A DNA stretch of 64,000 nt from Eledone cirrhosa (Eukaryota). Where the stretch lies: contig OZ024742.1 of NCBI GenBank assembly GCA_964016885.1, positions 333,064,001 to 333,128,000 of the forward strand, in the 5' to 3' direction. Under the pieces are notes generated by a model. The model ran no database searches and had not been told where the DNA came from. It worked only from the letters and a program-made list of their open reading frames with translations. The position numbers and the translations under genes were made by a program. Shown here piece after piece: positions 20,531 to 29,760 of this stretch (positions within the stretch are counted from its first letter, which is position 1; each line of letters opens with the position of its first letter).

Positions 20531-21045
20531 TATATATATATATATATATGTATATATATATATATATATATATATATATATATATATATATATATATATA
20601 TATATATATATATAAATATATATATATATATATATATACGTACATACATATATATATATATGTATACATATATATATATAAATATTTATATATATATATA
20701 TATATATATATATATATATATATAAATATATATTTATATATATATATATATATATAAGTTGCAAAAATGAAAACGAAATTTCATTTCTCACTCTTAGTAT
20801 GACACTTACTTAAATGTAAGTATGTATGTATACGTACATACATATATGTATACAGACGTACAGTAGCATGCATATATATATATATATATATATATATACA
20901 CATATGCATACAGGTACACATACATATATGCACGCATCAGTTTAGCCGACGTTTATTATAACGCAGCTTTGTTCGCTTGTTTCTCAACAAACCGAACAGC
21001 CTGAATTTATGCCATACGGTGTTAAGGCAACCACGTCACCTTTTT

Positions 21046-21132
21046 GTTCAACACTGACACAGGAACGATGTACTAGTTTCAAGCTTGTTAGCTATCATCA
21101 GCACCGTTTACCCATCTGCCAGATAGTTGAAC
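21046..21132 (-). ncRNA. Type I hammerhead ribozyme (array copy 1 of 18)
   Basis: Minus strand: gttcaactatctggcagatgggtaa acggtg CTGATGA t agct aaca agct t GAAA ctag TA catcgt tcctgtgtcagtgttgaac. Predicted cleavage after GUA, between 21071 and 21070. Equivalent A17 positions: 21587, 22069, 22595, 23087, 23611, 24075, 24539, 25041, 25552, 26056, 26555, 27096, 27602, 28066, 28570, 29093, 29564. Confidence 0.92.
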
Positions 21133-21181
21133 GTTCGAAAGTATATACTTTCCTTATGAAAATTAACGGCTGAGCAGCCTA

Positions 21182-21189
21182 ATTTGCAT
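21182..21189 (-). promoter_or_regulatory. Octamer motif ATGCAAAT, repeated through the array about 115 nt upstream of each cleavage site
   Basis: Exact atttgcat on the + strand between successive hammerheads. Function is inferred only. Confidence 0.4.
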
Positions 21190-24100: not shown

Positions 24101-27100
24101 ATCAGCACCGTTTACCCATCTGCCAGATAGTTGAACGTTCGAAAGTATATACTTTCCATATGAAAATTAACGGCTGAGCAGCCTAATTTGCATATTGAGT
24201 TAGTTAAATCGGTCAGGCATACCGAAAACGACAAGTTGAAAAAAATGAAAACGAAATTTCATTTCTCACTCTTAGTATGGCACTTACTTAAATATATGTA
24301 TACAGACGTACAGTAGCATGCATACATATATATATATATATATATATATATATATATATATATATACACATATGCATACAGGTACACATACATATATGCA
24401 CGCAACAGTTTAGCCGACGTTTATTATAACGCAGCTTTGTTCGCTTGTTTCTCAACAAACCGAACAGCCTGAATTTATGCCATACGGTGTTAAGGCAACC
24501 ACGTCACCTTTTTGTTCAACACTGACACAGGAACGATGTACTAGTTTCAAGCTTGTTAGCTATCATCAGCACCGTTAACCCATCTGCCAGATAGTTGAAC
24601 GTTCGAAAGTATATACTTTCCATATGAAAATTAACGGCTGAGCAGCCTAATTTGCATATTGAGTTAGTTAAATCGGTCAGGCATACCGAAAACGACAAGT
24701 TGAAAAAAATGAAAACGAAATTTCATTTCTCACTCTTAGTATGGCACTTACTTAAATGTAAGTATGTATGTATACGTACATACATATATGTATACAGACG
24801 TACAGTAGCATGCATATATATATATATATATATATATATATATATATATATATATATATATATATATACACATATGCATACAGGTACACATACATATATG
24901 CACGCAACTGTTTAGCCGACGTTTATTATAACGCAGCTTTGTTCGCTTATTTCTCAACAAACCGAACAGCCTGAATTTATGCCATACGGTGTTAAGGCAA
25001 CCACGTCACCTTTTTGTTCAACACTGACACAGGAACGATGTACTAGTTTCAAGCTTGTTAGCTATCATCAGCACCGTTTACCCATCTGCCAGATAGTTGA
25101 ACGTTCGAAAGTATATACTTTCCTTATGAAAATTAACGACTGAGCAGCCTAATTTGCATATTGAATGAGTTAAATCAGTCAGGCATACCGAAAACGACAA
25201 GTTGAAAAAAATGAAAACGAAATTTCATTTCTCACTCTTAGTATGGCACTTACTTAAATGTAAGTATGTATGTATACGTACATACATATATGTATACAGA
25301 CGTACAGTAGCATGCATATATATATATATATATATATATATATATATATATATATATATATATATATATATATATATATACATATGCATACAGGTACACA
25401 TACATATATGCACGCATCAGTTTAGCCGACGTTTATTATAACGCAGCTTTGTTCGCTTGTTTTATCAACAAACCGAACAGCCTGAATTTATGCCATACGG
25501 TGTTAAGGCAACCACGTCACCTTTTTGTTCAACACTGACACAGGAACGATGTACTAGTTTCAAGCTTGTTAGCTATCATCAGCACCGTTTACCCATCTGC
25601 CAGATAGTTGAACGTTCGAAAGTATATACTTTCCTTATGAAAATTAACGGCTGAGCAGCCTAATTTGCATATTGAGTGGGTTAAATCGGTCAGGCATACC
25701 AAAAACGACAAGTTGAAAAAAATGAAAACGAAATTTCATTTCTCACTCTTAGTATGGCACTTACTTAAATGTAAGTATGTATGTATACGTACATACATAT
25801 ATGTATACAGACGTACAGTAGCATGCATATATATATATATATATATATATATATATATATATATATATATATATATATATATACACATATGCATACAGGT
25901 ACACATACATATATGCACGCAACAGTTTAGCCGACGTTTATTATAACGCAGCTTTGTTCGCTTGTTTGTCAACAAACCGAACAGCCTGAATTTATGCCAT
26001 ACGGTATTAAGGCAACCACGTCACCTTTTTGTTCAACACTGACACAGGAACGATGTACTAGTTTCAAGCTTGTTAGCTATCATCAGCACCGTTTACCCAT
26101 CTGCCAGATAGTTGAACGTTCGAAAGTATATACTTTCCTTATGAAAATTAACGGCTGAGCAGCCTAATTTGCATATTGAATGAGTTAAATCAGTCAGGCA
26201 TACCGAAAACGACAAGTTGAAAAAAATGAAAACGAAATTTTTATTTCTCACTCTTTGTATGGCACTTACTTAAATGTAAGTATGTATGTATACGTACATA
26301 CATATATGTATACAGACGTACAGTAGCATGCATATATATATATATATATATATATATATATATATATATATATATATACACACATATGCATACAGGTACA
26401 CATACATATATATGCACGCATCAGTTTAGCTGACGTTTATTATAACGCAGCTTTGTTCGCTTGTTTGTCAACAAACCGAACAGCCTGAATTTATGCCATA
26501 CGGTGTTAAGGCAACCACGTCACTTTTGTGTTCAACACTGACACAGGAACGATGTACTAGTTTCAAGCTTGTTAGCTATCATCAGCACCGTTTACCCATC
26601 TGCGAGATAGGTGAACGTTCGAAAGTATATACTTTCCTTATGAAAATTAACGGCTGAGCAGCCTAATTTGCATATTGAGTGAGTTAAATCGGTCAGGCAT
26701 ACCGAAAACGACAAGTTGAAAAAAATGAAAACGAAATTTCATTTCTCACTCTTAGTATGGCACTTACTTAAATGTAAGTATGTATGTATACGTACATACA
26801 TATATGTATACAGACGTACAGTAGCATGCATATATATATATATATATATATATATATATATATATATATATATATATATATATATATATATATATATATA
26901 TATATATATATATATATATATACACATATGCATACAGGTACACATACATATATGCACGCATCCGTTTTAGCCGACGTTTATTATAACGCAGCTTTGTTCG
27001 CTTGTTTGTCAACAAACCGAACAGCCTGAATTTATGCCATACGGTATTAAGGCAACCACGTCCCCTTTTTGTTCAACACTGACACAGGAACGATGTACTA

Positions 27101-29538
27101 GTTTCAAGCTTGTTAGCTATCATCTGCACCGTTTACCCATCTGCCAGATAGTTGAACGTTCGAAAGTATATACTTTCCTTATGAAAATTAACGGCTGAGC
27201 AGCCTAATTTGCATATTGAGTGAGTTAAATCGGTCAGGCATACCAAAAACGACAAGTTGAAAAAAATGAAAACGAAATTTCATTTCTCACTCTTAGTATG
27301 GCACTTACTTAAATGTAAGTATGTATGTATACGTACATACATATATGTATACAGACGTACAGTAGCATGCATATGTATATATATATATATATATATATAT
27401 ATATATATATATATATATATATATATATACACATATGCATACAGGTACACATACATATATGCACGCATCAGTTTAGCCGACGTTTATTATAACGCAGCTT
27501 TGTTCGCTTGTTTGTCAACAAACCGAACAGCCTGAATTTATGCCATACGGTGTTAAGGCAACCACGTCACCTTTTTGTTCAACACTGACACAGGAACGAT
27601 GTACTAGTTTCAAGCTTGTTAGCTATCATCAGCACCGTTTACCCATCTGCCAGATAGTTGAACGTTCGAAAGTATATACTTTCCATATGAAAATTAACGG
27701 CTGAGCAGCCTAATTTGCATATTGAGTTAGTTAAATCGGTCAGGCATACCGAAAACGACAAGTTGAAAAAAATGAAAACGAAATTTCATTTCTCACTCTT
27801 AGTATGGCACTTACTTAAATATATGTATACAGACGTACAGTAGCATGCATACATATATATATATATATATATATATATATATATATATATATACACATAT
27901 GCATACAGGTACACATACATATATGCACGCAACAGTTTAGCCGACGTTTATTATAACGCAGCTTTGTTCGCTTGTTTCTCAACAAACCGAACAGCCTGAA
28001 TTTATGCCATACGGTGTTAAGGCAACCACGTCACCTTTTTGTTCAACACTGACACAGGAACGATGTACTAGTTTCAAGCTTGTTAGCTATCATCAGCACC
28101 GTTTACCCATCTGCCAGATAGTTGAACGTTCGAAAGTATATACTTTCCATATGAAAATTAACGGCTGAGCAGCCTAATTTGCATATTGAGTTAGTTAAAT
28201 CAGTCAGGCATACCGAAAACGACAAGTTGAAAAAAATGAAAACGAAATTTCATTTCTCACTCTTAGTATGGCACTTACTTAAATGTAAGTATGTATGTAT
28301 ACGTACATACATATATGTATACAGACGTACAGTAGCATGCATATATATATATATATATATATATATATATATATATATATATATATATATATATATACAC
28401 ATATGCATACAGGTACACATACATATATGCACGCAACTGTTTAGCCGACGTTTATTATAACGCAGCTTTGTTCGCTTGTTTCTCAACAAACCGAACAGCC
28501 TGAATTTATGCCATACGGTGTTAAGGCAACCACGTCACCTTTTTGTTCAACACTGACACAGGAACGATGTACTAGTTTCAAGCCTGTTAGCTATCATCAG
28601 CACCGTTTACCCATCTGCCAGATAGTTGAACGTTCGAAAGTATATACTTTCCTTATGAAAATTAACGACTGAGCAGCCTAATTTGCATATTGAATGAGTT
28701 AAATCAGTCAGGCATACCGAAAACGACAAGTTGAAAAAAATGAAAACGAAATTTCATTTCTCACTCTTAGTATGGCACTTACTTAAATGTAAGTATGTAT
28801 GTATACGTACATACATATATGTATACAGACTTACAGTAGCATGCATATATATATATATATATATATATATATATATATATATATATATATATATATATAT
28901 ATATATATATATATATATACACATATGCATACAGGTACACATACATATATGCACGCATCAGTTTAGCCGACGTTTATTATAACGCAGCTTTGTTCGCTTG
29001 TTTTATCAACAAACCGAACAGCCTGAATTTATGCCATACGGTGTTAAGGCAACCACGTCACCTTTTTGTTCAACACTGACACAGGAACGATGTACTAGTT
29101 TCAAGCTTGTTAGCTATCATCAGCACCGTTTACCCATCTGCCAGATAGGTGAACGTTCGAAAGTATATACTTTCCTTATGAAAATTAACGGCTGAGCAGC
29201 CTAATTTGCATATTGAGTGAGTTAAATCGGTCAGGCATACCGAAAACGACAAGTTGAAAAAAATGAAAACGAAATTTCATTTCTCACTCTTAGTATGGCA
29301 CTTACTTAAATGTAAGTATGTATGTATACGTACATACATATATGTATACAGACGTACAGTAGCATGCATATATATATATATATATATATACACATATGCA
29401 TACAGGTACACATACATATATGCACGCATCCGTTTTAGCCGACGTTTATTATAACGCAGCTTTGTTCGCTTGTTTGTCAACAAACCGAACAGCCTGAATT
29501 TATGCCATACGGTATTAAGGCAACCACGTCCCCTTTTT

Positions 29539-29625
29539 GTTCAACACTGACACAGGAACGATGTACTAGTTTCAAGCTTGTTAGCTATCATCAGCACCGT
29601 TTACCCATCTGCCAGATAGTTGAAC
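29539..29625 (-). ncRNA. Type I hammerhead ribozyme (array copy 18, 5'-most)
   Basis: Same sequence as copy 1. The array breaks off almost exactly at the outer end of stem I. Confidence 0.9.
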
Positions 29626-29760
29626 GTCGGCTAAACTGATGCGTGCATATATGTATGTGTACCTGTATGCATATGTGTATATATATATATATATATATAT
29701 GCATGCTACTGTACGTCTGTATACATATATGTATGTACGTATACATACATACTTACATTT
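29623..29760 (+). repeat. Inverted partial array unit
   Basis: aacgtcggctaaactgatgcgtgc...catacttacattt is the reverse complement of part of the unit, joined through aacgt microhomology. Confidence 0.93.

What the first reader, a model, noticed from the sequence alone, without database searches (positions are those of the whole stretch)
20756..29627. 8.9-kb 'satellite' is an 18-copy tandem array of hammerhead ribozymes: a candidate non-LTR retrozyme / circular-RNA system
Seen: every 464-541 bp unit has on the minus strand acggtg-CUGAUGA-u-agcu-aaca-agcu-u-GAAA-cuag-UA|caucgu. Stem I extends about 25 bp (guucaac/guugaac, cuggca/ugucag) with a UAA-containing internal loop. Stem III is the tiny palindrome A-CUAG-U. 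There is no ORF. Established: tandem non-coding repeats carrying type I hammerheads with minimal palindromic stem III (newt satellite 2, Schistosoma Sm-alpha, metazoan non-LTR retrozymes) self-cleave, often as dimers, into monomers that can circularise, and they are thought to be mobilised by Penelope-like elements. Inference: a read-through transcript would be cut into ~500-nt monomers or circles. That is longer than the roughly 150-400 nt units I know of, and these units contain a microsatellite. I cannot confirm from here that this family is undescribed.
Basis: partly seen in the sequence, partly recalled or inferred. Interest (0 to 1): 0.93.

Follow-up and report, generated by a model that had tools for sequence, protein, structure and literature searches.

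The report
Hammerhead retrozyme copied by Penelope machinery
The 18-copy repeat is one insertion of a very abundant non-coding mobile element that carries a self-cutting hammerhead RNA motif, a kind already known from many animals, and its insertion sites suggest it is copied, probably from an RNA circle, by a Penelope-type retrotransposon.

Summary
There are 18 type I hammerhead cores on the minus strand (16 intact) and 17 monomers of 464-541 nt. Stems I and II covary against a 60%-identical sister family. Rfam does not call them (18.5 bits, cut-off 52). This is a non-LTR retrozyme, a known class, and the unit size is not unusual.

The genome holds 11,425 exact copies of the core. Arms end at one of two fixed internal sites about 57 nt apart; 29 of 30 classifiable head-to-head pairs use one of each, the Penelope 'tail' signature. 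Both arms share a template, and 94.6% of copies run through the cleavage site. One sister insertion has 11+11 units, identical where read, as rolling-circle reverse transcription predicts.

Two insertions join the retrozyme directly to a Hydra-clade Penelope, the likely helper. A conserved octamer+TATA block resembles this genome's U6 promoters. This array was later expanded at DNA level. Cleavage, expression and circles are untested.

The parts
20756..29627 (-). Main arm: starts at unit position 419 (counted from the cleavage site), crosses 18 hammerhead cleavage points (17 full monomers), ends at position 324 (distal site A) against (TA)n
29623..29761 (+). Inverted short arm (unit positions 118-268), head-to-head with the main arm, ending at proximal site B against (TA)n
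20756..20811 (-). 'Tail' of about 57 nt between the two fixed end sites, holding a hairpin just before site A; present at this end only
   Evidence: compare PMC11167929 and PMC8557442
21046..21132 (-). Type I hammerhead, last copy: stem I 21107-21102 with 21070-21065, core from 21101, stem II with U.U at its base, palindromic stem III, predicted cut after GUA at 21071/21070, extended stem I
27096..27126 (-). Core with U4 changed to A (probably weak or dead; effect of this change recalled, not tested)
23087..23117 (-). Second core with the same U4-to-A change, shared by descent with the copy at 27096
21142..21189 (-). Candidate internal promoter, present in each of the 17 full units: octamer (21189-21179) with a TATA-like box 42 nt downstream
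21346..21414 (.). Internal (TA)n run, one per unit, 16-92 nt; cause of most of the unit length variation
20531..20755 (.). (TA)n target microsatellite, site A side
29762..30383 (.). (TA)n target microsatellite, site B side

Best explanation
A non-autonomous, Penelope-mobilised non-LTR retrozyme. Steps: (1, inferred) tandem copies are transcribed, probably from the internal octamer+TATA block. (2, inferred from structure, covariation and published analogues) adjacent hammerheads cut, most likely as dimers through the palindromic stem III, giving ~460-540 nt monomers whose ends are held together by stem I and are ligated into circles. (3, DNA footprint shown, enzymology inferred) a Penelope-like RT/GIY-YIG protein cuts both strands in (TA)n and primes each from one of two fixed internal sites about 57 nt apart on the same RNA source. 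Synthesis runs through the ribozyme junction for up to many rounds, and the two 5'-truncated products are joined head to head. (4, suggestive, about 55%) the helper is the 821-aa Hydra-clade family 'PLE-B'. (5, shown by variant order) this array was afterwards enlarged by DNA-level duplication of multi-unit blocks.
For: Ribozyme: 94.9% of cells paired and 5 of 13 pairs changed on both sides, at most 46.3% paired when partners are slid; a further compensatory change in subfamily 2b; monomer fold z -7.1 with paired ends. Mobility: 11,425 exact core copies, control 0; 99-100% identical copies on many contigs. Penelope signature: two fixed ends followed by (TA)n. Of 46 head-to-head pairs in 94 stretches, 29 are A+B, 1 B+B, 0 A+A, 16 have an unclassified end (one A+B pair counted twice). 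The two autonomous PLE families examined show the same two-end pattern. One template: arm-to-arm divergence is below the median to other loci in 22 of 22 pairs tested and zero in 6. Read-through: 14,292 of 15,100 copies continue 6 nt across the cut site. Rolling circle: an 11+11 unit head-to-head insertion, the 4 units read being identical over 467 nt. Helper: direct in-line junctions to PLE-B in 2 of 129 stretches, with reciprocal A/B ends, none to PLE-A.
Against: No cleavage, transcript or circle was observed. Rfam score is far below cut-off. The covariation rests mostly on one split (family 1 versus 2), and the pairs-with-change count was reached by 141 of 500 shuffles. U.U at 10.1-11.1 and the 2-bp stem III predict a weak ribozyme; 8 of 9 Xenopus retrozyme dimers did not cleave in vitro. 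In the Anolis PLE, cleavage was dispensable and unprocessed RNA was the main template, so read-through does not prove circles. The unit shows no similarity to the terminal repeats of PLE-A or PLE-B. The two chimeras could be nested insertions with deletion. Units in this window differ by 6.4 substitutions on average, so the 18 copies did not come from one circle unchanged. The octamer was found in only 3 of 7 U6 loci and 0 of 3 U2 loci examined, and its spacing to TATA is 41-43 nt against 46-48 in U6.
Confidence: 0.68

Rival explanations
1. Same element and same Penelope machinery, but the template is an uncleaved read-through multimer from a donor array. Circles, if made, are a side product, and the hammerhead acts elsewhere in the cycle or rarely.
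For: Uncleaved RNA was the dominant substrate for the Anolis PLE and no reads ended at its cleavage site (PMC11167929). The core is predicted to be weak. Read-through counts fit both models. The window's units are heterogeneous.
Against: An insertion with 11 units on each arm, identical where read, needs a perfectly homogeneous donor of 11 or more units. Several young multimers have 0-2 differences within a locus against a between-locus mean of about 20. Ribozyme stems are kept by compensatory change. Circles dominate in coral, mussel and axolotl retrozymes.
Confidence: 0.22
2. The units are terminal repeats of an autonomous Penelope-like element that I did not find, so the family moves in cis with its own ORF.
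For: It has the anatomy of a PLE terminus (ribozyme, two start sites, tail). 24 of 57 Xenopus retrozyme families matched known elements, 21 of the 22 being PLEs. Only a small part of one contig was sampled, and many PLE families in this genome were not examined.
Against: In the stretches screened full units join only to further units. Families 1 and 2 align over the whole unit at about 60%, so the closed non-coding unit is old.
Confidence: 0.07
3. An ordinary satellite amplified only at DNA level, with a chance or dead hammerhead-like motif.
For: No Rfam call; block duplications inside the array; no activity data.
Against: Dispersed copies with fixed ends, inversions and (TA)n targets; covariation; pattern far above chance.
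Confidence: 0.03

Closest known systems
Metazoan non-LTR retrozymes (Cervera and de la Pena 2020, PMC7229834; parts 2-4 of 6 read; supplement unreadable)
   Same: Non-coding tandem units, one type I hammerhead each, GC below 50%, thousands of copies, coexistence with PLEs. Axolotl HHR_Amex2 also has a U.U mismatch at the base of helix II.
   Different: Their units are 150-450 bp and circles were shown. In the parts read they only propose PLEs as helper, and do not describe fixed start sites, inverted arms, (TA)n targets or chimeras.
Vertebrate non-LTR retrozymes as PLE derivatives (Li, Clavereau, Pollet 2026, bioRxiv 10.64898/2026.07.22.740005; parts 1-3 of 5 read; supplements closed)
   Same: Size range 51-972 bp, monomers to long arrays, PLE link.
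   Different: Their link is sequence homology to pseudo-LTRs, and they favour local amplification for arrays. Here no such homology was found to two PLE families, and the link is insertion anatomy and junctions.
EN+ Penelope-like elements: Poseidon of Anolis (Frangieh 2024, PMC11167929; parts 1-2 of 4); Hydra clade (Craig 2021, PMC8557442; passages, section 11 and supplement hits)
   Same: Two internal RT start sites giving a tail at one end, inverted 5'-truncated copy, partial tandems, (TA)n targets, hammerhead upstream of the start sites.
   Different: No ORF here; tail about 57 nt (family 2 about 69) against 30-40 bp; arms can be long homogeneous multimers.
Newt satellite 2 (snRNA-type internal promoter, seen only as cited in PMC2220036; Coats 1994 not held)
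   Same: Hammerhead tandem repeat with a promoter resembling snRNA genes.
   Different: Here it is only a sequence resemblance to some U6 promoters of the same genome; that the newt promoter contains an octamer is recalled, not read.

Membership tests
Non-LTR retrozyme | Type I hammerhead with conserved core in tandem units | tested here: met
   16 of 18 cores intact; stems covary
Non-LTR retrozyme | Non-coding tandem repeat of a few hundred bp, low GC, no LTR structure | tested here: met
   464-541 nt, 33-34% GC, no ORF; within 51-972 bp
Non-LTR retrozyme | Many dispersed monomers and multimers; PLEs in the same genome | tested here: met
Non-LTR retrozyme | Highly self-paired monomer | tested here: met
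   z -7.1, 0 of 100 shuffles as stable; alternating TA/TG tracts contribute
Non-LTR retrozyme | Self-cleavage in vitro | not testable with these tools
   needs an assay
Non-LTR retrozyme | Expressed as linear and circular monomers | not testable with these tools
   only contig data of unrecorded kind were available
Non-LTR retrozyme | Target-site duplication longer than 4 bp when present | tested here: inconclusive
   targets are (TA)n; one insertion into a PLE ORF (L130) shows an apparent repeat of about 9 bp by eye
Rfam hammerhead clan CL00010 | Score at or above gathering threshold | tested here: not met
   18.5 against 52 bits; 0 hits
PLE-mobilised element | Two fixed internal 3' ends with tail at one end; inverted 5'-truncated copy | tested here: met
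PLE-derived retrozyme (Li 2026) | Sequence homology to the pseudo-LTR of an autonomous PLE | tested here: inconclusive
   none to PLE-A or PLE-B; other PLE families not retrieved in full
Autonomous PLE | RT plus GIY-YIG ORF | tested here: not met
Hydra clade (for the candidate helper PLE-B) | RWx, DKT, CxCX5C linker, CxxC and CxH near the C-terminus, short ORF, (TA)n targets | tested here: met
   motifs against the description; no tree was built

The most novel reading that the evidence does not exclude
This is an animal retrozyme whose whole cycle can be read from the genome. It transcribes itself from a U6-like octamer+TATA promoter, circularises, and is twin-primed at two fixed sites by a Hydra-clade Penelope protein with which it shares no sequence. 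That protein rolls round one RNA circle on both strands of the break (up to 11+11 identical units, about 10 kb) and can switch between the circle and its own mRNA. This would be direct evidence for the long-proposed rolling-circle model and would name the helper.
Probability: 0.33. Interest if true: 0.76.

Novelty: new member of a known kind. Interest (0 to 1): 0.54.

Why it matters
How animal retrozymes integrate is still a hypothesis in the papers read: PLEs are called a 'strong candidate' and the mechanisms 'remain to be elucidated'. This young family supplies thousands of insertions with mappable start sites, paired arms, homogeneous multimers and a candidate helper with intact ORFs. The model can therefore be tested in the published in vitro PLE assay. 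A PLE protein that writes kilobases of tandem cDNA from a small circle into (TA)n would also explain how satellites are seeded. The array by itself is an ordinary example of a known class.

Tried and rejected
Helper by homology: PLE-A (1217-aa ORF; a broken copy lies at 13680-15733) and PLE-B (821 aa) have their own hammerheads and no similarity to the unit. The 5-kb gap between two cores at C1:49.07 Mb holds an unrelated 1045-aa ORF (looks like a LINE by recalled motifs), not a PLE body. The L130 junction first looked like a chimera but is an insertion into a PLE-B-like copy, since the ORF continues on both sides. A possible 31-codon frame across the tail was read by eye and dropped; no extension was found. 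Pol III making full units was considered and judged unlikely because a T7 run and three T4 runs lie on the transcribed strand. One search used a mis-registered structure string (44.9% paired) and was redone. Pfam found nothing in 3 of 3 window ORFs. Sequencing runs: no RNA holder listed. Contigs laid: 4176 in X1, 25 in X6, 2 in X4, 0 in X5; they show presence in at least one other coded organism and say nothing on expression. Host lineage: searches gave no usable names; my impression of an octopod-like genome is recalled and untested. Literature searches listed no paper that by title or abstract describes this family or retrozyme-PLE chimeras; Repbase and Dfam could not be searched, and unread supplements may hold it. 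Earlier-findings look-ups were blank.
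Full report
OBSERVATION. The minus strand of 20756-29627 holds 18 hammerhead cores; none is on plus. The 17 cleavage-to-cleavage monomers are 464-541 nt and 96.9-100% identical once the internal (TA)n run is collapsed. Sixteen cores are intact and two carry U4A. 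A loose hammerhead pattern gives 35 matches in the window against 1.69 by shuffling. Rfam gives nothing at gathering score and only 18.5 bits for Hammerhead_HH9. No ORF lies inside the array.

IS IT A RIBOZYME? A relaxed search of the own genome (G000, 3.0 Gb, unnamed) turned up a sister family with a 469-nt unit and 4,254 matches, about 60% identical over the whole unit, as well as an older subfamily of family 1. On 10 aligned cores (9 distinct), 94.9% of cells pair and 5 of 13 pairs change on both sides; sliding the partners gives at most 46.3%. These changes mostly reflect one split, and 141 of 500 shuffles reach the pair count, so they are few events. Subfamily 2b adds another compensatory change in stem II (by eye). 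The monomer folds at z -7.1 with its ends paired. The palindromic stem III is unfavourable as a hairpin but forms a duplex, which fits the dimer model in PMC4209133 (passages). Activity is inferred, not shown; 8 of 9 Xenopus dimers did not cleave.

IT IS A MOBILE ELEMENT WITH A PENELOPE FOOTPRINT. A 31-nt core pattern occurs 11,425 times, control 0. The window's array has an inverted arm at 29623-29761 and (TA)n on both sides. Across fetched loci, arms stop at one of two positions, about 265 (B) and about 324 (A) after the cut site, followed by (TA)n. In 94 stretches, chosen mostly from the first 66 Mb of C1 for holding a core pattern, there were 46 head-to-head pairs: 29 A+B, 1 B+B, 0 A+A, and 16 with an end outside both classes (L064 and L130 are one insertion). 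Of 59 unpaired arms, 22 end at A, 21 at B and 16 elsewhere. This is the PLE 'tail' and inversion pattern (PMC8557442), traced in vitro to two internal RT start sites (PMC11167929). The two autonomous PLE families examined show the same two ends, as does a PLE-A fragment in this window at 50358-50763.

TEMPLATE. In 22 pairs hand-picked from the 46 for overlap, the two arms are closer to each other than the median to other loci in 22 of 22, identical in 6, and unmatched by any other arm in 10. Genome-wide, 14,292 of 15,100 copies of the 25 nt after the cut site also carry the 6 nt before it, so synthesis does not stop at the cut; linear cleaved monomers are not the main template. A family 2b insertion has 11 units on each arm at exact 467-nt spacing; the 4 of 22 units read in full are identical. 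A circle copied for many rounds is the simplest reading. Uncleaved multimers remain a real rival, since they were the main substrate for the Anolis PLE, and assembly homogenisation was not excluded.

THIS ARRAY. Its units differ by 6.4 substitutions on average, more than several young multimers elsewhere (0-2, 56 monomers; other loci are as or more mixed, up to 17.7). They fall into recurring types (m1~m6, m2~m9~m14, m3~m10~m15, m4~m11~m16, m5~m13), and block ends fall in mid-unit, not at the ribozyme (table, read by eye). So a shorter insertion aged in place and was enlarged by DNA-level duplication.

HELPER. Neither PLE-A (1217 aa) nor PLE-B (821 aa) shares terminal sequence with the unit. 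But in 129 stretches (some overlapping) five junction rows were found, all to the PLE-B reference and none to PLE-A. Two are in-line joints to close PLE-B copies. L066 has PLE-B's distal end on one side and the retrozyme's B end on the other. L068 with L256 has the retrozyme's A end and PLE-B's proximal end. Two rows are one duplicated insertion into a 77%-identical relative, and one is tail to tail. PLE-B has the Hydra-clade motifs. Template switching within one event explains the reciprocal pattern, but nested insertion with deletion in a shared (TA)n target does too; I give the helper assignment about 55%.

PROMOTER. Outside the ribozyme, the longest block kept between families 1 and 2 is an octamer with a TATA-like box 41-43 nt downstream, also seen in a third, unrelated-looking family with three octamers. 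Three of 7 U6 loci examined have the octamer at -76 to -78 and TATA at -30; 0 of 3 U2 loci have it. Newt satellite 2 is cited as using an snRNA-type promoter. T runs on the transcribed strand argue against Pol III making whole units. This is a lead only.

COMPARISON AND VERDICT. The element meets every sequence criterion of non-LTR retrozymes that could be tested (PMC7229834; bioRxiv 10.64898/2026.07.22.740005), and its size lies inside the published 51-972 bp. It is a new family of a known kind. Searches listed no description of it; Repbase, Dfam and two sets of supplements could not be seen. What lifts it above routine is the genomic evidence on mechanism (paired start sites, shared template, homogeneous multimers, candidate helper), which the parts of those papers that I read treat as hypothesis. 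Interest 0.54.

Noticed in passing
window 13176-16389 (+): Broken copy of PLE-A (RT and GIY-YIG frames at 13680-14363 and 14486-15733), flanked by (TA)n; the family has intact 1217-aa frames elsewhere.
   Followed up: partly
window 50358-50763: Short head-to-head PLE-A terminal insertion with its own hammerhead (50515-50552) and both end sites, in (TA)n.
   Followed up: partly
L174, L193-L222, L255; G000:C1:56387570-56397713 and C1:95.62 Mb: Sister retrozyme family 2 (467-471 nt, no long TA run, GUC, GUA or GUU cut site), thousands of copies, long arrays.
   Followed up: yes
L253, L254: Third hammerhead-like family with a different core context; L253 has three octamer-like repeats before the TATA-like box.
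   Followed up: partly
L223, L224, L225: Some U6 genes of this genome carry the octamer at -76 to -78, much nearer than the distal element I recall for vertebrates; U6 (C19) and U2 (C3, C13) lie in tandem clusters.
   Followed up: partly
window 17076-17969 (-) and 31886-32227 (-): Related ORF fragments (297 and 113 aa) with no Pfam hit for the longer one; they look like a DNA transposon remnant by recalled resemblance.
   Followed up: no
window 20300-20480: Small non-coding element with inverted internal copies next to the array's (TA)n flank; a similar sequence lies beside L074 and L236.
   Followed up: no
window 37018-44522: Large C/A-rich minisatellites (periods 34, 23/70, 32), the last in opposite orientation, 94.6 copies.
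   Followed up: no
L140: A further, distant PLE family (22% identity to PLE-A) as a head-to-head pair.
   Followed up: no
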